Assembly (NCBI RefSeq): GCF_009914755.1
Contig: NC_060929.1
Length of the DNA stretch: 64,000 bases
Source of the DNA: the human T2T-CHM13v2.0 reference genome, Homo sapiens
Strand: one strand, 5' to 3'
Of this stretch, positions 2,799 through 59,965 are shown piece by piece. Positions within the stretch are counted from its first letter, which is position 1. Each line of letters begins with the position of its first letter. The position numbers and the translations under genes were made by a program. The notes under the pieces are model-generated. The model was not told the DNA's origin. It saw only the letters and a program-made list of their open reading frames with translations, and did not search any database.

Positions 2799-2845
2799 GG
2801 TTTCGCTTTCGCTTTCCTGCCGATGTCGTTGAGGAAAATGAAAGC
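2799..2845. promoter_or_regulatory. Tandem IRF-E/ISRE elements at the presumed TSS
   Basis: GGTTTCGCTTTCGCTTTCC at 2799-2817 reads GGAAAGCGAAAGCGAAACC on the minus strand (three GAAA cores with 2-nt spacers). GGAAAATGAAAGC at 2833-2845 is on the plus strand. Both fit the GAAANNGAAA IRF consensus. Confidence 0.75.
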
Positions 2846-41460: not shown

Positions 41461-41500
41461 GTGCCAGAGTTTGTAGCCTATTGGAGGAAAACACACCAAG
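41461..41500 (+). CDS. C5orf56: Exon 3 (40 nt); putative 126-aa ORF segment 2 (VPEFVAYWRKTHQ-G)
   Basis: Acceptor ctttccttgttttttgcag|GTG and donor AAG|gtaaga; in frame with segment 1. The exon is well supported, its coding status less so. Confidence 0.5.
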
Positions 41501-42184: not shown

Positions 42185-44837
42185 TTTTTTTTTTTTTTTT
42201 CTAAAGTAAGACTGGTTTAGTTCAAGAGGTATATACTAAGATCTTTCCAGCATAGGGCTTCTCTGATTCTGTGTTTAATCTCAGTCCAAATTTTGTGAAG
42301 ATCCTCAGCAAATAAATGGATGTGGGAAATGTGTGATTGGGAAAGAGGCAGCTTTTAAAAATGTGTCTGGCCTTTGACCACGCAATTTCACTTTCCAGTA
42401 TTTATTCTAGGAAAATACTCATACTATTGCAAAGTTTATATATAAAGATAGTTATAACTGCATTGTTTATCATTTACAAAAAGAAAACATCTGAAAGCCC
42501 AACAAGACGGAACTGGTTATTCCACATTGGCACATTCATACAAGGGAATGTCATTAGGAAGAATGATGAAGATAAATATTTATTGATGAGAAAGATATTT
42601 GAACATACCATTTTTTTAAAAAAGAAATGGAAAAATCTTACAAACCATTCAAGGAAAGTAGCTTTGGATTCAGCCTGAAGGGTTGAGATCTAGCTTAGTC
42701 TCTTAACCAACTTGGGAACTCAGGCAATTAATGTGATCTCCCTGAACTTGTTTCCTGCCTGTAAACGGGGCACAATAACACCTATCTTGTGAAGTTGGAA
42801 GGATTAAGAGAGATTAACACATCTAAAGGCCTCAGCACAGCCCAGTAGGTGATGATTGCTCAGTAGCTGGGTGCTTAGATGAGACATGGACTGTGATAGT
42901 ATTTTTACCCGTTTATAAGCCTGGAAACATTCTGGAAATTCATACACCAGCAGTGGAGTTTTCTGACTGATAGAATCATGGGTGATTATTAATATTTTCT
43001 TATTTTTCTACAAGGAATATCTCCTGCTTATCTAAGGATGGTATAGTTTAAAAAAAAGTGACAATTTAAAAGGTTAAAAAAAAAAACAGTGCATTTCAGC
43101 AGGTAAGTTTGCTAAGTAGTCCCTGCACAGAGCTCTGGAGAACTGAGAGAGAGGTGGGAAAGAAAGGGAATAGGGAGAACAATGGGTGAAGGAAAAGAGA
43201 AGGGGAGGTCAGACCCCAGGGCTAGTGGCCAAGGAGATGCACCTCGGCGGTAACGCTGGAGCCCCACCAAGCATGTGTTTGTCCTCCCATCCCCTATGAT
43301 TGGCACCTCCCGGGAGAGCTCCAGGTAGGAGATCTTGTAACCCAAGGCTCATCTGTCCCAGCTTCTGATGACAACAAATGTGTGTAGCCTCTTTTAGCTG
43401 CCGAGACAGCCTGACTATGGCACGTCCAGGGAGAGGCCCCGTGGCTCTAGTCCTGGGCCTGACTCATCCACCTTTGGTAAACCCAGCATTTTTTTCCATG
43501 TCCAGAGTAGGAGAGGCAGGGCATCCTGGTGAATTCCCAGAAGTCATCCTAAAAGGATTAGCACCTCTCTTCTTTAGCAGCCCAATAGGATCTATACCCA
43601 AGAGATAGGTCTCCCAAGCAAATACAGGCTGCCAGGAGAGGGAAATGGTGACCACCTAAGGGCTGCCATGCCTGGCTCTCATCCCCACCCTCACCCCACC
43701 AACTGCCTTAGTGGCCAGTGACATCAGGAGGAACCCTTCCATGCTGATGGTGCTTGTGCCCACCTATGCCAGTTCATTGAGCATTCTTAGAGAGGCATGA
43801 CTCTTCTACATAAGCGAATTTTCCAAATTATTAAATTTGATCCCATCACATTGCAGTTTTAAAATTGTACCCTTTTAAATTAATTTCTATTCTATCAAAT
43901 TTATCAAAATAATGCACAAATTCAAAATAGCTGGAAGAGATGATTTTGAATGTTGTCACCACAAAGAAATGACAAGTGTTTAAGGTGATAGATATGCTAA
44001 TTACCCTGATTTGATCATGTCATGCTATATGTATGTCTGGAAACATCACACTGCACTGCATAAATATCTACAATTATTATGTATCCATTAAAAACAAAAT
44101 AAAAAATAATGCATGCATATGGTTTAAATATCAGTTGTACTGAGAAGCCCATAATAAAAATCCCTTCCCCGCCTTTCTCACTCCCCCTCTCTATAGGCTG
44201 CCTCTTTCAACCATTTACTAGTTTCCATTTCTGTTTATACTATTTTTTGATCTACCGATTTTAGGCATTTGTTGACTTCTTGTGATAGATGAGGATTGAA
44301 CTTTCCTACAGAACCATCCCCACTTTTCCTCTCTCCATCCTTCCAATAGGAACATAACACAATCTGTGGTTAACTCAATAGTGAATGTGGACATATTCGT
44401 CACTGCTGAGTTATGTAGCATCTTTGAGTCCTGGAAGATTTTCTTGTATTATTTCTTTAATAATTTTCTTCCCTGTATTTTATCTGTTGGATCATCTGGA
44501 TTAATGTTTTAGTTTCCTTATATTTTCTCTCCTACTTTTCATCTCTTTGCCTTTTTGGTCTACTTTCTTGGGAAACCTTCATTGACTTCATACTCCAACC
44601 CTTCTGTTGATTTTTTTTTTTAATTTTGGCTTTCTTTTTCTAATATCCTAGTACTCATTCTTGTTCTTCCTGTTCTTTTTCAAAAATACCACATTCTTTT
44701 TTATGCATATACTATCTCCATCCTATTCTTCTTGAGGCACTATTTATTTTTCATTTGTCCATTTGTCTTAATAGTCTTCTAGTCTCTATTTTGTTTTTGT
44801 TTCTACCTGGAGGTGGCAGCGGCGGTGGTGGCTGCTT

Positions 44838-54267: not shown

Positions 54268-56210
54268 CTTCAGATGTCACACTGGACTTTCAGGAAAGGT
54301 TCCCCTCTCTGCTGCTTCCCTGCTGGAGCCATGGAGAGCAAGTCTATCCCTGTTCCATAGGTCAATCCTTTGAATGATTTCTCATGGCTGAGTTCACTCC
54401 CCTGCACCTCCAGGGTTGCACTTCTCTGAAAATACTCATTTATTTTATGTGTCTACTAAAAACATGGCACCCACGACCCAATAATATGTTGGAAGGGGTT
54501 GGAGAGAGAAACGCGAGTACCTCTCACACCTTCTCACACACTACACATCTTAGCGATGGCCGAGTGAGCATGTTGGCTCTCTGGACTCCTCAGTCTGTTG
54601 GTCTGGGCTGCGCTAGGCTCAGGCTCCCTGCCTCCCCCCCAACCTTGATCCCCTTGCTTCTTGAACCTGATGCTGGGCCTCACATTCTCCGTTGATTCTA
54701 GCTCTTAAATCCTGCTTCTCCAGCTTGTCAGGAGGCTGTGCCCTCACACCCCAAAGAGCAGATCTGCCCTCTCCACTGAGAGGGAAGGAGTGAAGGTCCC
54801 ACAGCCTCTGACCCCTGCTGGGCCCAAGAGAGGAACAGCTGCTTGCTTTATTTCTCGTGGGAGAAATGTGTCTCCTCTTTGTCTCAGGCACCCCTCTGCC
54901 CTGTACAGCAGCAAGTCAGCAGGAATGAGCTGAGCCGCCCAAGTAGTGGCTCCCTCCACTATGGGGGCTCTGTGGTCCTGGGGGCTGTCCTGCCTCCACT
55001 GCCATAGGCCTGGCCCCAGAGCATGCTGCAGTGGTCACAACCTGTGGAGGTGCCCCCAGACCCCCATATTTGGGCCCAACTACAGCCTCCTTCCCCAGCT
55101 TTGCCACCTGGCTTGGGAGCCAGGGCACCACCAGCTTCGTTGGCAGGGAGAGATGAAGAAAGAGGCCATAGCCACGCAAGTGACTGAAGTTCATGTTCGT
55201 GCACACCAATTAGAGAGGGACAGCACGTTCATTTACCTCCAAATCCAGCCACAGACACATCGCCCTTTTCTCTTGGCTCTGAGGCCTCCACAGAAGGGTT
55301 TTTTAAGGTTGCAGCCAGGACCTTTATAGCCTAGTCCTGAGAAGATTATCTTTTTATTGCAACTTTGATTAATGATTGATCAAAAACTGATACTAGAAAC
55401 ACTGAAGAACAAATTTGCTGTAGACATTAGGAAAGGTCTACATCTGGCAGGCCTGGAGACCTGCCCACCCTCTCCCCCCACGGTCAAACCAGGGCAAAGG
55501 TACATTGGAAGACCCAACCCCTACACACTCTTACACGTGCACTCGCACACACACACTGAGGGGAAAGAAATATTTAATTGTCCTTAAATCCTCTTGGATT
55601 AGGCTATAAATTGCAAATAAATGGAGCAACAGACAGAGCAAAAGCACATAAGGTCCTTTAATAGAATTTCTCTATCTTATTCTGTTTCTATGAATGCCTG
55701 TTACAAATTAGCAGCTTAAAGGGAAACCTGGAGTGTGGGAAAGAGCGACCCTTGTGTGAAGTCCACAGCCGGGGTTTCCTACAGACCTCAGGTCCCAGAG
55801 AACATCTAAGATGCCTCCAACACCAGATGGAGGAGGGCAGGAGATGCTGCACAGAGAAGCAGCACTTCCCGAGCATCTGTGGCAGGAAGTGACTTGGAGA
55901 GGATGAGGCCGTGCCTCAGGTGTGCTCTAGCTGTTCTGATGGTCTCTGAGGCCACGACTGCCATGGTGAGGTCCACAGCCTGCATCAGAATCACCAAAGG
56001 GCCCAAACGTACGGCCTCAGAGCCTGGAGAGCCAGGAATCGGCATTGCAACAACTCCCTGCTCAGTGGGTTCTACCAGTCCAGTACCCGCCCTCTGAGGG
56101 TGCCCAGGGAGCAGGGTGCTTGCTGGCTGGAACACTTTTTCCTGCCCCTCAGCTCCTCTGTGATGCCCTGAGGCACGGGCACTGGAAAGCTGGCAGAGCT
56201 GCTTCTAAAT

Positions 56211-56259
56211 TGAAACTGGAAAATGAAACTGGAAATCACAGTTTCATTTTCCAGTTTCA
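56211..56259. promoter_or_regulatory. Palindromic double ISRE (21-bp perfect inverted repeat, 7-nt spacer)
   Basis: TGAAACTGGAAAATGAAACTG-gaaatca-CAGTTTCATTTTCCAGTTTCA. Each arm contains GAAANNGAAACT or its complement AGTTTCNNTTTC. Confidence 0.75.
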
Positions 56260-57396
56260 CTCGCTCCCCCTACTGTTGGGGTTTCTTTTCCACAAGGAGA
56301 GTCCCCCAGGGAGAAAGAAGCAGGAGTGGGAGTGGGGGAGCATGTTGGGGGAAGGCAGTGAGGGTGTCCTGTCTGCAGCAGGGCATGGAGGGGCCCCAGC
56401 GCTGCACTTGCTTCCTTTAAGCCTGGCCTGCTTGCTGTCAGCCCCGGGGGTGGTTTCCTCTCTAGGAAAAGCTAATGTCATGCTTATGCTGAAAAACTCT
56501 TTTCAGAGGTACTTTAGGAGGGGCCTGGCTCTCGATTAATCTGGGCCATTTCATACCGGCTGTGCTCACCCAGGCACAAACACTGAAAGCAACAGCTGGC
56601 AAAGCCATCGCTTGGTAGCAGCTTGGAAGACACCACCAAAGAAGCTCTCATGGAAGCGGCAGATTTCCTGAAGCGACTGGAATGCGGGGAAGGAGGGCAG
56701 TCGGGGAGAGCCGAGAACCAGCCCCCCTGCCAACTCCACCCCATTCCTCTCCTCACCTGAAATGTCTCATCCTTAGAACAGCTGCCCTAACCCCCTAATC
56801 CCACACACTCCTTTGTAGGTTAAGACCCCTGAAGTTGCACCCTCTCGTAGGAGCTATGTTTTTCAGAGATCCATGTGATTATTTGCCTAATGTCTGCCTC
56901 CCTCAGGGAAGTAAAGTCTGTGACGCGTGGACCTGGTCTGTGTTGTTCACTGTGCATCCACAGTGCCTGGGTAGTGCCTGGCATGCAGGAAGTACACACA
57001 AAAAATATGTGTTCATGAGTGAGGGCAGGCTTGAAGAGCCCAAGAGAAGGACAGTGCTCCAGGGAGGCGTCTGCATCAGGCTCCCCAGTGTCTGGACTGC
57101 ATCCCAGCCCCTCCGAGCAACTTCAGGGGAGGATTCTGTGAACAGATGCCCCAGCTCTTCCGCCCACAGCTCCTACCCCCAGCCTGAGGAATGCTTTGAC
57201 TGTCCCCAGTGTGTGCAGGCAGTGGGGAGGTGATAGGGGGAGGTGTCCCACATGGCACACTCTCCCTAGCCCTTGCTTTGCCTCCGTTACCTACATAGAT
57301 GGGCTTCACAGCCTCTTCCAGATAGGCAGGGCACTGAGCTCTGTGGGCCACACCTAAAAAGAAAGGGAGACAAGCTGGCGGTGGGGGCATGACAGT

Positions 57397-57789
<393 letters not shown>

Positions 57790-59965
57790 TGACCTCAGGC
57801 CCCACACCACCCTTTCACCTCAGCCTCACTTTCTCATCAGTAAATGGAACTCGTTCTTGTGTATGTGCCATGGAGGCAATGTAGCAGAAGAGAATAGGGC
57901 AGACTTTGGAACTCAGCCATCTGGGAGAAAATCCTAGTTATGTGATGACCTTGAGCCAATGACTGAATTTCTCTGTCTCATTTTCTCTTCTGTAAAATGG
58001 GGACAATTACAGTGAATTCTGTGAATTCATTCATGTCCCTGACACATGGTGTGAGCTCAGTCATTACCTTTGCCAGGGTTGCAAGGATGTAATGAGATGG
58101 CAGATGTGAGCACAGCTCCCAGACCCGAAGGTGCTGTATGAATGGGAGGGAGCAGTGAGTGTTATTTGGGAAATATTGAAGACACAACTTCCCTCCCACA
58201 TTTGTCTGGGGTGGAGCAACAGTTTTACTTATTTAATGATAAGCTGGAAGATGCACCAAAGGGAGGTGAAAAACTGAAACCGCCAACCGTTTGAGCTCCA
58301 GGCTGCACCGAAGCGGTGTGGCTGGTGCAGATGGTGAGAGCCCCAGTGCCGGCCCACTTCCTCCATGAGTGCCACACGCCTTTCTCAAGCTAGCCGGCTT
58401 CCCAAGGCTGCAGGAAGTGGGGCCAGGAACAGGCCCTCCGGCTGTGTTGGGGGAGGCCTGGGCAGGGGTTGGCAGCTGCTGGGTGTGAACGGAAGTCTTG
58501 GAGGTCCTTGAAGGTCCTGGGGCCGCCTGCACAGCAGCCCCTGCCCTCTCCCTGTCCAGGCCTGCCCAGGACTAGCTTGTAGCAGACTCTTCTTGTAGCC
58601 TAGGCTCTTGCCTCTTGCAGTAGTGAGCCATTGTACAAAAGACATCCAGCGGAGGGAGGCAGGCTGGAGAGGAGGACAGCCGAATCTTTTCTCAAAGGAA
58701 ATGCAGTTGTGGTTTTGAGATGTTCATATTTCACATCTGTGGTTGGCGTTTCCCAGGGTTCTCAGAGGTGAATGCAGGGTCAGCCCTGTGTCACCAAATA
58801 AGGCTCACAGTGACCTTAGCAACAAGCTTTGCTGCCCATTGGCTGTCACTGCTGCCGCCTGCCAATGCGGCCTCCTGAAGGCCAGCACTGATGCTGAGCT
58901 GAAACTTCTGCATGTGCCAAGGTCCAGCTGCCTCTGTCAGAAATCACCGTCCTTGGAAGCAGCCACAGATAGGTAGAGAGCTCCGGACAAAGGTGGACAA
59001 GGTCAGTGGGAGGACTGTCCAGGTGTCCATGTTTCAGAGTCCACCTGGCCAGCATTCCATTCTCACATAGCACCAAACCAGCACCTTGGTGGCCTGGTCC
59101 CAGCTTGCCAGGACAACCCCCCATTCCACCCTGTCAACCTTGAACTCTATAATGGTCATCATTTCATAGCTCTGCTCATTTTAGTTCCACTGGGTTCTCC
59201 CTTGTGCTTGGCACTTGACTAAGCTCCTTCTACACATTACATCTTTTACCTCTCTCAACAACCCTGTGAGCCAATTAGCCCCATTTTACAGGTGCAGAAA
59301 CTGACACCAAAGGAAGTCAGTAATGGCCCAGGTGACTGCACCACTAGTAAGTGGGGAAGTCAGAATTTAAACCCAATTTAAACAGACCTAGATCCCATGC
59401 TATTAACCATTGCACTGTATTGACAGACACTCAATGTCCGTGCAGCTCAGTGTCTTCATTCTGTGACATGGGGATGACAGTACCGTACCTCACAGGGTTG
59501 GGGTGAGCATTGTGTGGAGTGACTTATGTCCAGAAGCACACCTTTGCACCAGTGGCCTTGGCACCCCCAAGGCATGCTCCACAAACAGCTTGCACATTCC
59601 TTTCTCACAGCGTGTGCTGCTGAAACATTGAGGTTTGTGGACCGGACTTCTCTGTAGCCCTTGTATTTGGTTTTCACTTCCTCTTTCTTGACCTCCTCCC
59701 ACCCCCCACCCAACTGCAAGGTAGGGAGGCTACTGAGGGGCCAGCCTGTGGATTCCAGAGGGCACAGGGCTATCTGGGATGGAGGGGACAGGGTTCTGAA
59801 GACAGAAGGTGGGAAGGTCACACTGTAAGGGCAGACATACCCCATTTCTTCTACCTAAACAACTGGGTGTAATACCACTGTTTCCCTGAGAAACACTTTC
59901 AGGATTAAAAAGTATATAAGTAAAGAAAATAAAGCATATAAGTGATCTGGTAAAGATGAAAACAT

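What the first reader, a model, noticed from the sequence alone, without database searches (positions are those of the whole stretch)
56211..56259. Perfect 21-bp inverted repeat whose arms are consensus ISREs
Seen: TGAAACTGGAAAATGAAACTG (56211-56231), spacer GAAATCA, then its exact reverse complement (56239-56259). Each arm has a full ISRE (GAAAATGAAACT at 56219-56230; AGTTTCATTTTC at 56240-56251) plus an extra GAAACT half-site. The left side is also a tandem repeat of TGAAACTGGAAA. It sits in unique sequence with ETS-like GGAAGT motifs about 330 bp upstream. Known: ISREs bind ISGF3 and IRFs. Inference: a symmetric, high-avidity interferon enhancer between the lncRNA 3' exon and IRF1, built by tandem and then inverted duplication. 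It could also extrude as a cruciform or form a 21-bp RNA hairpin in read-through or enhancer RNA. A perfect 21-bp inverted repeat is very unlikely by chance in 64 kb, and GGAAAATGAAA also recurs in the promoter element at 2833.
Basis: partly seen in the sequence, partly recalled or inferred. Interest (0 to 1): 0.8.

Follow-up and report, generated by a model that had tools for sequence, protein, structure and literature searches.

The report
Palindromic double interferon-response element near IRF1
A perfect 49-base palindrome in an intron of the CARINH RNA gene, 17 kb beyond IRF1, carries two textbook interferon-response motifs and probably docks interferon-activated factors, but no binding data could be checked here.

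Summary
Arms 56211-56231 and 56239-56259 are 21 nt, 100% complementary, with a 7-nt spacer. It is the only perfect inverted repeat of 12 nt or more in the window. It is longer than any in 60 shuffles (9-16 nt) or in 200 kb of other genome (longest 15).

Each arm holds a perfect ISRE core (3 in the window against 0.19 expected). That 12-mer also forms the repeated ISRE about 4 kb upstream of the chr1 Ifi-6-16 gene. The site is single-copy, so not a MITE, and matches no Rfam family at threshold.

It lies inside CARINH's last intron, 3.4 kb from the published rs17622517 IRF1 enhancer. A SNP 123 bp away carries promoter, enhancer and DNase marks in a published table. Common SNP rs2706339 maps to the first spacer base.

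Best reading: an IRF/ISGF3-docking ISRE cluster in an active regulatory element, with the symmetry a by-product of duplication. Binding, interferon response, conservation and cruciform formation were not testable. Convergent ISRE pairs are no commoner genome-wide than a control pattern.

The parts
56211..56231 (+). Left arm of the perfect inverted repeat (21 nt). It holds three GAAA cores.
   Evidence: (I1)
56232..56238 (.). 7-nt spacer GAAATCA, the loop of the hairpin. It holds a fourth GAAA core. Its first base (56232, G) is the inferred site of common SNP rs2706339.
   Evidence: SNP placed by offset
56239..56259 (-). Right arm, the exact reverse complement of the left arm. It holds three TTTC cores.
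56219..56230 (+). Perfect ISRE core GAAAATGAAACT (matches GAAANNGAAACT).
   Evidence: the same 12-mer is repeated upstream of the chr1 Ifi-6-16 gene
56240..56251 (-). Second perfect ISRE core, convergent with the first. The two centres are 21 bp apart.
56211..56236 (+). Two tandem 13-nt units (TGAAACTGGAAAA / TGAAACTGGAAAT). The inverted copy spans the junction of the two units, so the tandem duplication came first.
   Evidence: (D5, 92% in a register shifted by 4)
56282..56291 (-). ETS-IRF composite-like motif (GGAAAAGAAA on the minus strand), 23 nt beyond the right arm.
   Evidence: 5 matches to GGAANNGAAA in the whole window
56296..56305 (-). NF-kB-like site (GGGACTCTCC on the minus strand), 37 nt beyond the right arm.
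   Evidence: 12 matches to GGGRNWYYCC in the whole window

Best explanation
The 49-bp palindrome is a compact cluster of IRF/ISGF3 binding sites: two perfect, convergent ISREs plus extra GAAA half-sites. It sits in an active regulatory element in the last intron of CARINH, within the enhancer belt downstream of IRF1.

It most likely works as a docking platform. After interferon or TLR signalling, ISGF3 (STAT1-STAT2-IRF9) and IRF proteins such as IRF1, IRF2, IRF4 and IRF8 occupy the two ISREs. With the adjacent ETS-IRF-like and kB-like sites, they raise transcription of IRF1 and/or CARINH. That would give the locus an ISRE-type, possibly self-reinforcing, input that the GAS-driven IRF1 promoter lacks.

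The perfect symmetry is most likely a by-product of origin, not a functional requirement. A 13-nt unit was duplicated in tandem, and then 21 nt spanning the unit junction were copied in inverted orientation, for example by a replication template switch.

Shown: the anatomy, its rarity, single-copy status, motif identity, and position relative to a validated enhancer. Inferred: binding, target gene, direction of effect, and mutational mechanism.
For: Motif quality:
- There are 3 perfect GAAANNGAAACT cores in 64 kb against 0.19 expected, and two of them are the arms.
- The 12-mer GAAAATGAAACT is the same one repeated at G000 C1:27513557-27513631. That is about 3.9 kb upstream, on the same strand, of the only chr1 match to Pfam Ifi-6-16. 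That this gene is IFI6, with its classical ISRE, is recalled.
- Other tandem perfect ISRE pairs lie at coordinates that I recall as the IFIT and IFITM clusters.
- The palindrome has 7 GAAA/TTTC cores in 49 nt, the maximum in the window.

Context:
- The guide RNA of the CRISPRi/CRISPR-tested IRF1 enhancer at rs17622517 (PMC8345867, methods sections read) maps to 59648-59667, 3.4 kb away.
- rs2706336 maps to 56088, 123 bp from the left arm. In the HaploReg-type supplementary table of PMC8263739 it has entries that I read as promoter marks in 20 tissues, enhancer marks in 13, DNase in 7, and EBF1 bound. The meaning of those columns is recalled.
- The main text of that paper lists rs2706336 and rs72797306 (mapped to 56877) among SNPs with H3K4me1/H3K27ac or active enhancer/promoter states (passages).
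- PMC8602369 (passages) reports that two or more high-confidence ISREs mark interferon-induced elements with enhancer activity (55% against 10-11%). It also reports that the OAS3 element needs both of its ISREs and has a RELA site beside one of them.
- The host gene's promoter carries the same GGAAAATGAAA word next to a TTTCGCTTTCGCTTTCC element.

Origin: template switching that creates perfect hairpins is described in PMC5453318 and PMC8794818 (search listing and abstract openings only).
Against: - No ChIP, ATAC or reporter data for this site could be seen.
- A motif alone predicts binding poorly. Preprint 10.1101/2020.09.08.287581 (passages) counts 2-3 million unbound ISRE-like motifs against 1,548 bound ones in human cells.
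- Convergent perfect ISRE pairs (3 loci) are no commoner than the reversed control (3). The other two lie in an L1/Alu context and in AT-rich sequence. Tandem pairs (24 matches) are also no commoner than their control (28).
- rs2706339, mapped into the spacer, shows only a nominal IRF1 eQTL in LPS-treated monocytes (beta -0.147, p 0.032), identical to its linkage block. The lead signals lie elsewhere.
- None of the papers read on the locus mentions this element (passages, plus some methods sections and supplements). The literal-sequence search gave 5 irrelevant hits.
- The chromatin evidence comes from SNPs 123 and 618 bp away, not from the palindrome itself.
Confidence: 0.5

Rival explanations
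1. It is a neutral mutational product. A GAAAC-rich 13-mer was duplicated in tandem and then copied in inverted orientation by a replication template switch. The ISRE matches follow from the unit's composition. The site is not occupied and has no regulatory effect.
For: - The arms are perfect while the flanks do not pair, as expected for a single recent copying event.
- Convergent and tandem ISRE pairs are not enriched over control patterns genome-wide.
- Most ISRE-like motifs are unbound.
- No paper read or searched describes the site.
- The SNP mapped into the spacer has only a nominal, linkage-shared eQTL.
Against: - Both cores match the strict 12-nt consensus, identical to the one repeated upstream of the chr1 Ifi-6-16 gene.
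- Flanking SNPs carry promoter, enhancer and DNase annotations.
- The site lies in an interferon-inducible locus, 3.4 kb from a validated IRF1 enhancer.
- kB-like and ETS-IRF-like sites lie within 50 nt.
Confidence: 0.3
2. It is the core of an unannotated interferon-inducible internal promoter, or a bidirectional enhancer-RNA start site, rather than a classical distal enhancer. The symmetric ISRE pair would drive divergent transcription inside the CARINH intron.
For: - In the HaploReg-type table, rs2706336 (mapped to 56088) and rs72797306 (mapped to 56877) have the highest promoter-mark counts of the CARINH SNPs listed: 20 and 14 tissues. Most other rows are blank in that column (column meaning recalled).
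- GC content is 56% around the site.
- Classical ISG promoters carry paired ISREs (identities partly recalled).
Against: - No transcript start is annotated here in the RefSeq table supplied.
- The published ISR8/CARINH promoter reagents map to about 2865-2900, not here (primers compared by eye with the sequence).
- No CAGE or PRO-seq data were seen.
Confidence: 0.12
3. The structure itself is the function. The DNA extrudes a cruciform under transcription-driven negative supercoiling, hiding or exposing the ISREs. Alternatively, the 21-bp RNA hairpin in CARINH pre-RNA or enhancer RNA is recognised by a double-stranded-RNA-binding or processing factor.
For: - Each strand folds into a 21-bp hairpin: DNA -22.1 kcal/mol, z -10.25.
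- The stem persists within 149 nt of RNA context.
- The nearest-neighbour cost of duplex to two hairpins is about +16 kcal/mol (-59.2 against -21.8 and -21.4). I recall this as being within the range reported for cruciform extrusion.
- The arms are 33% GC.
- The site lies in the sense strand of an interferon-induced transcript.
Against: - A 7-nt spacer raises the kinetic barrier to extrusion (established knowledge, recalled).
- The stem is far shorter than a Drosha substrate. The best Rfam hit is mir-761 at 29.8 bits against a gathering score of 82.
- Nothing shows that symmetry is maintained by selection; no cross-species data were available.
- The arrangement is not recurrent in the genome.
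Confidence: 0.05
4. It is a remnant of a transposable element: the terminal inverted repeats of a MITE, or an internal palindrome of a repeat family.
For: Short perfect inverted repeats are typical of DNA transposon ends.
Against: - The 35-nt centre occurs once in 3.1 Gb.
- The 21-mer with up to 1 mismatch gives 8 matches, 2 of them the arms themselves, against 2 for the control. The one other exact copy has no inverted partner.
- A BLAST of 601 bp finds only itself.
- The arms are 7 nt apart with no internal element.
- The hub lists no masked stretch of 100 nt or more here.
- Very old, diverged repeats would escape these searches.
Confidence: 0.02

Closest known systems
Classical promoter ISREs in tandem, such as the repeated GGGAAAATGAAACT element upstream of the chr1 Ifi-6-16 family gene (IFI6, name recalled)
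   Same: The 12-nt ISRE core GAAAATGAAACT is identical, and the 13-mer GGAAAATGAAACT is shared. There are two or more perfect cores within a few tens of bases.
   Different: There the copies are direct repeats in a promoter. Here the two cores are convergent, part of a perfect palindrome, and lie in an intron 26 kb from the IRF1 start and 53 kb from the CARINH start.
Homotypic ISRE clusters in interferon-induced enhancer-promoters (OAS3 Epromoter, PMC8602369) and ISRE arrays in enhancers (a mouse Rhoh array cited in preprint 10.1101/2020.09.08.287581)
   Same: Several high-quality ISREs are packed together, with an NF-kB-type site nearby in the OAS3 case. Arrays made by local duplication can be bound by ISGF3.
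   Different: Those elements have ChIP-seq and reporter evidence; this one has none that I could see. Their ISREs are not described as a perfect inverted repeat.
The rs17622517 enhancer of IRF1 in the same CARINH intron (PMC8345867)
   Same: It lies in the same intron and the same presumed target gene, 3.4 kb away. It is stimulus-dependent.
   Different: That element is described (passages read) as lying close to IRF4 and RELA motifs, and it was tested by CRISPRi and editing. 'ISRE' and 'palindrom' have 0 occurrences in that paper's text. It is a separate site.
Palindromic GAS elements such as the inverted-repeat element of the IRF1 promoter (recalled)
   Same: Both are interferon-responsive palindromic DNA at the IRF1 locus.
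   Different: A GAS is a 9-11-bp TTCNNNGAA dyad bound by one STAT dimer. No TTCNNNGAA occurs in 55700-56800. Here the palindrome is 49 bp long and made of two complete ISREs.
Template-switch mutations that create perfect hairpins (PMC5453318, PMC8794818, PMC7954356; listing and abstract openings only)
   Same: A perfect inverted copy of adjacent sequence lies in otherwise unique DNA.
   Different: That origin is defined by comparison with an outgroup or ancestor, which could not be done here.

Membership tests
ISRE (ISGF3/IRF response element) | Match to the consensus core GAAANNGAAACT | tested here: met
   Two perfect cores at 56219-56230 (+) and 56240-56251 (-). The window has 3 against 0.19 expected. 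The 12-mer is identical to the repeated element upstream of the chr1 Ifi-6-16 gene.
ISRE (ISGF3/IRF response element) | Occupancy by ISGF3 or IRF proteins after stimulation | not testable with these tools
   No ChIP-seq data were accessible. No paper read mentions the site.
ISRE (ISGF3/IRF response element) | Interferon-inducible transcriptional activity | not testable with these tools
   This needs a reporter or deletion experiment.
Active enhancer or promoter element | Open chromatin and active histone marks at the site | tested here: inconclusive
   The evidence is indirect. SNPs mapped 123 bp upstream and 618 bp downstream carry promoter, enhancer and DNase entries in a published HaploReg-type table (column meaning recalled). 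There is no data at the palindrome itself.
MITE / DNA-transposon terminal inverted repeats | Multiple related copies in the genome | tested here: not met
   The centre is unique. The arm has 1 other exact copy, without an inverted partner. A 601-bp BLAST finds only itself.
microRNA precursor | Match to a known family at its gathering score, or a stem of about three helical turns | tested here: not met
   The best Rfam hit is mir-761 at 29.8 bits against 82. The stem is 21 bp and the flanks do not extend it.
GAS (STAT dimer palindrome) | TTCNNNGAA dyad | tested here: not met
   There are no matches in 55700-56800.
Cruciform-forming inverted repeat | Perfect arms with a short spacer and stable hairpins | tested here: met
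   Arms are 21 nt with a 7-nt spacer. Hairpins are -21.4 to -22.1 kcal/mol; the duplex is -59.2 kcal/mol.
Cruciform-forming inverted repeat | Extrusion under supercoiling | not testable with these tools
   This needs nuclease or chemical probing.
Template-switch mutation product | An ancestral or outgroup sequence lacking the inverted copy | not testable with these tools
   No other vertebrate genome is held. Only the within-sequence order of events could be inferred: tandem first, then inverted.

The most novel reading that the evidence does not exclude
The perfect symmetry is functional and maintained. Transcription through CARINH, or nearby enhancer firing, drives negative supercoiling that extrudes the 49-bp palindrome as a cruciform. 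That switches the two ISREs between a duplex form that ISGF3/IRF can bind and a hairpin form. The result would be a topology-gated interferon enhancer, or a timer, for the IRF1-CARINH feed-forward loop at an autoimmune risk locus.
Probability: 0.04. Interest if true: 0.8.

Novelty: new member of a known kind. Interest (0 to 1): 0.4.

Why it matters
IRF1 is a master regulator of interferon responses. The CARINH/IRF1 interval carries association signals for inflammatory bowel disease, asthma, juvenile arthritis and breast cancer (papers). From recalled knowledge, the IRF1 promoter is driven by GAS and kB sites, not by an ISRE.

A working double ISRE 17 kb downstream would give the locus a direct ISGF3 input and an IRF self-amplifying input. 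It would also be a compact, easily edited target for testing how site number, orientation and spacing affect interferon enhancers.

Common SNP rs2706339 maps to the first spacer base, inside a fourth GAAA core. That offers a natural allele to test. If the site proves unbound, it is simply a tidy example of a duplication-made palindrome.

Tried and rejected
- A literal-sequence literature search gave 5 irrelevant papers. A search for rs2706339 gave 0 papers.
- Phrase searches for palindromic, inverted or dual ISRE gave nothing describing such an element (listing only, apart from two papers read in passages). Phrases for CARINH intron or downstream of IRF1 led to four papers with nothing on this site.
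- The second convergent ISRE pair, on chr7, looked at first like a possible ISG promoter. By eye it is the end of an L1-like sequence next to an Alu, so I rejected it.
- I asked whether the published 'ISR8 promoter' might be this site. Its cloning primer and guide match about 2865-2900, the RefSeq CARINH promoter (one search compared by eye), so I rejected that.
- The Rfam scan at a permissive E-value gave only generic sub-threshold miRNA-model hits on the hairpin.
- A wider empirical background for palindromes was cut short.
- The supplement of PMC12422192, which may list variants and elements downstream of IRF1, was too large to read.
- Cross-species conservation could not be examined, because no other vertebrate genome is held.
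- The hub's list of RefSeq functional elements is truncated ('11 more' enhancers). I could not see whether one covers this site.

Full report
**What is there.** Arms 56211-56231 and 56239-56259 are 21 nt long and 100% complementary, separated by the 7-nt spacer GAAATCA.

- The left side is a tandem repeat. The exact 12-mer TGAAACTGGAAA occurs at 56211-56222 and again at 56224-56235, with period 13 (family D5, finds the same repeat in a shifted register).
- The second 13-nt unit runs into the spacer. The inverted copy equals unit 1 plus the first 8 nt of unit 2.
- So the tandem duplication must have come before the inverted duplication. That ordering is an inference from the anatomy.
- Beyond the arms the flanks do not pair.

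**More than chance.**

- In the whole 64-kb window the only perfect inverted repeats with arms of 12 nt or more and a spacer of 30 or less are this one and its own slipped 12-nt register.
- In 60 dinucleotide-preserving shuffles of the window the longest such repeat was 9 to 16 nt. The most frequent lengths were 10 (24 shuffles) and 11 (20 shuffles); the observed value is 21.
- As a real-sequence background I took twenty arbitrary 10-kb stretches of the same genome. In those 200,000 bases there were 11 perfect repeats of 12 nt or more, several of them registers of one (AT)n run. The longest was 15 nt.

**Not a repeat family.**

- The 35-nt centre occurs once in the 3.1-Gb assembly.
- The 21-nt arm with up to one mismatch gives 8 matches against 2 for the reversed control. 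Three are exact: two are the arms, and the third (chr5:66.0 Mb) has no inverted partner.
- A BLAST of 601 bp around the site finds only itself, plus the palindrome's self-match on the other strand.
Very old, diverged repeats would escape these searches.

**Motif content.**

- The strict ISRE core GAAANNGAAACT occurs 3 times in the window against 0.19 expected. None of 100 shuffles reached 3. Two of the three are the arms, at 56219-56230 (+) and 56240-56251 (-).
- The two cores face each other, and their centres are 21 bp apart, about two helical turns.
- Counting GAAA/TTTC cores, the palindrome has 7 in 49 nt, the highest density anywhere in the window.
- The 12-mer GAAAATGAAACT is the same one found three times in tandem at chr1:27,513,557-27,513,631 on the minus strand. 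That is about 3.9 kb upstream of the only chr1 match to the Pfam Ifi-6-16 domain, on the same strand. I recall this as the IFI6 (6-16) promoter with its classical ISRE.
- Just beyond the right arm lie an ETS-IRF composite-like motif (56282-56291, minus strand) and a kB-like site, GGGACTCTCC on the minus strand (56296-56305). No GAS, AP-1 or CTCF consensus occurs within 55700-56800.
The 11-mer GGAAAATGAAA does recur at 2833-2843, at the CARINH start.

**Is the arrangement a recurrent grammar?** It is not.

- Genome-wide there are 3 loci with two perfect ISRE cores facing each other within 30 nt, the same number as for the reversed control pattern. One is this site. One lies at the end of an L1-like sequence beside an Alu (by eye). 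One lies in AT-rich sequence.
- Divergent pairs: 1 locus against 0 for the control.
- Tandem pairs: 24 matches against 28 for the control. Several of these fall at what I recall as classical ISG promoters (IFI6, checked; the IFIT and IFITM clusters by recalled coordinates only).
- So paired perfect ISREs are rare and sometimes mark the strongest interferon promoters. The convergent, palindromic form has no precedent that I could find.

**Where it lies.** By the hub's annotation the site is inside the last intron of CARINH (exon 41461-41500 before it, last exon beyond the window). It is 17.1 kb past the 3' end of IRF1 and 26.3 kb from the IRF1 start.

The guide RNA used to silence and edit the rs17622517 enhancer of IRF1 (PMC8345867, methods sections read) maps uniquely to 59648-59667. 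That places the SNP at about 59664, 3.4 kb on the IRF1 side of the palindrome.

I then placed neighbouring SNPs by offset, using the distances in that paper's S2 table. The mapping is supported in three ways:

- 4 of 14 mapped SNPs fall on CpG positions.
- rs2522057 (C/G) falls on a C.
- rs2706336 (T/C, hg38 132,464,269) falls on a CpG C at 56088.

On this mapping rs2706339 falls at 56232, the first base of the spacer and the G of the fourth GAAA core. I did not see its alleles, and no paper in the library mentions it. Its IRF1 eQTL in LPS-treated monocytes is nominal (beta -0.147, p 0.032) and identical to that of its linkage block.

**Chromatin context, from print only.**

- PMC8263739 (passages) lists rs2706336 and rs72797306, which I map to 56088 and 56877 on either side of the palindrome, among SNPs overlapping H3K4me1/H3K27ac peaks or active enhancer/promoter states.
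- In its HaploReg-type supplementary table, rs2706336 has entries that I read as promoter marks in 20 tissues, enhancer marks in 13, DNase in 7, and EBF1 bound. rs72797306 (name cut short in the table) has 14, 20 and 7. The meaning of the columns is recalled from the HaploReg format.
- This is indirect: the SNPs are 123 and 618 bp from the palindrome.
- None of the papers I read in passages on this locus mentions an intronic ISRE palindrome.

**Structure.**

- Either DNA strand folds into the 21-bp hairpin: -22.1 kcal/mol in a 69-nt context, z -10.25, with 0 of 200 shuffles as stable.
- The bare 49-mers give -21.8 and -21.4 kcal/mol, against -59.2 for the duplex. The nearest-neighbour cost of a cruciform is therefore about +16 kcal/mol before any junction penalty.
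- The RNA stem persists in a 149-nt context.
- A permissive Rfam scan gives only generic sub-threshold miRNA-model hits, the best being mir-761 at 29.8 bits against a gathering score of 82.
- Structure formation is therefore possible but unproven, and a canonical miRNA is unlikely.

**Best reading (confidence 0.5).** This is a homotypic IRF/ISGF3 binding cluster within an active regulatory element of the IRF1-CARINH domain. It probably acts with the neighbouring ETS-IRF-like and kB-like sites as an interferon- and TLR-responsive enhancer, or possibly an internal promoter.

- The closest described analogues are multi-ISRE elements such as the OAS3 Epromoter. In PMC8602369 (passages), two or more high-confidence ISREs distinguish elements with enhancer activity, and both OAS3 ISREs are required.
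- The palindromic perfection is most simply a by-product of a tandem duplication followed by an inverted duplication. One possible mechanism is replication template switching, which is reported to create perfect hairpins (PMC5453318, PMC8794818; listing and abstract openings only).
- Against this reading: motif presence predicts binding poorly (2-3 million unbound ISRE-like motifs against 1,548 bound in human cells, preprint passages). I saw no binding or perturbation data for this site, and the arrangement is not enriched genome-wide.

**Rivals.**

- Neutral mutational product: 0.3.
- Unannotated inducible promoter or enhancer-RNA start: 0.12.
- Structure-dependent function: 0.05.
- Transposon remnant: 0.02.

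**Verdict.** I file it as a probable new member of a known kind, a multi-ISRE regulatory element, with an unusual perfect inverted architecture whose relevance is open. The decisive data exist publicly but were out of reach here: ChIP-seq and ATAC with and without interferon at the site, and primate alignments to date the arms.

Noticed in passing
window 56232: Common SNP rs2706339 maps by offset arithmetic to the first base of the spacer, the G of a fourth GAAA core. It is 144 bp from rs2706336 in the S2 table of PMC8345867. Its IRF1 eQTL is nominal (p 0.032) and shared with its linkage block. I did not see its alleles, and no paper in the library mentions it.
   Followed up: partly
window 55863-55891: A second small palindrome of transcription-factor words: CACTTCC and GGAAGTG (ETS cores) form a 7-nt inverted repeat with a 15-nt spacer, about 330 nt upstream of the ISRE palindrome.
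   Followed up: no
window 55909-55920 and 56167-56178: A perfect 12-nt inverted repeat, CCGTGCCTCAGG / CCTGAGGCACGG, with arms 246 nt apart (I2). The words CCTCAG/CTGAGG recur five times between 55914 and 56174. By recall these resemble AP-2-type GCCNNNGGC sites.
   Followed up: no
window 2800-2845: The CARINH promoter has TTTCGCTTTCGCTTTCC (an IRF/ISRE-type element on the minus strand) followed 14 nt later by GGAAAATGAAAGC on the plus strand. That is a divergent pair of IRF-type sites straddling the annotated start at 2840. The published ISR8 guide and cloning primer match about 2865-2900.
   Followed up: partly
window 44220-44231 (-): The third perfect ISRE core in the window, GAAATGGAAACT, is also in the last CARINH intron. 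I did not examine it further.
   Followed up: no
window 59648-59670: The published enhancer guide for rs17622517 maps here with a TGG PAM. Just downstream lies TTTCACTTCC (59672-59681), an IRF/ETS-like word. This fits the paper's remark that IRF4 motifs lie near the SNP.
   Followed up: no
G000 C5:5450866-5451025: A tandem array on chr5p has units of about 37 nt, each carrying GAAAATGAAACT, giving four overlapping tandem-pair matches. I do not know whether it is an ISRE array or a minisatellite.
   Followed up: no
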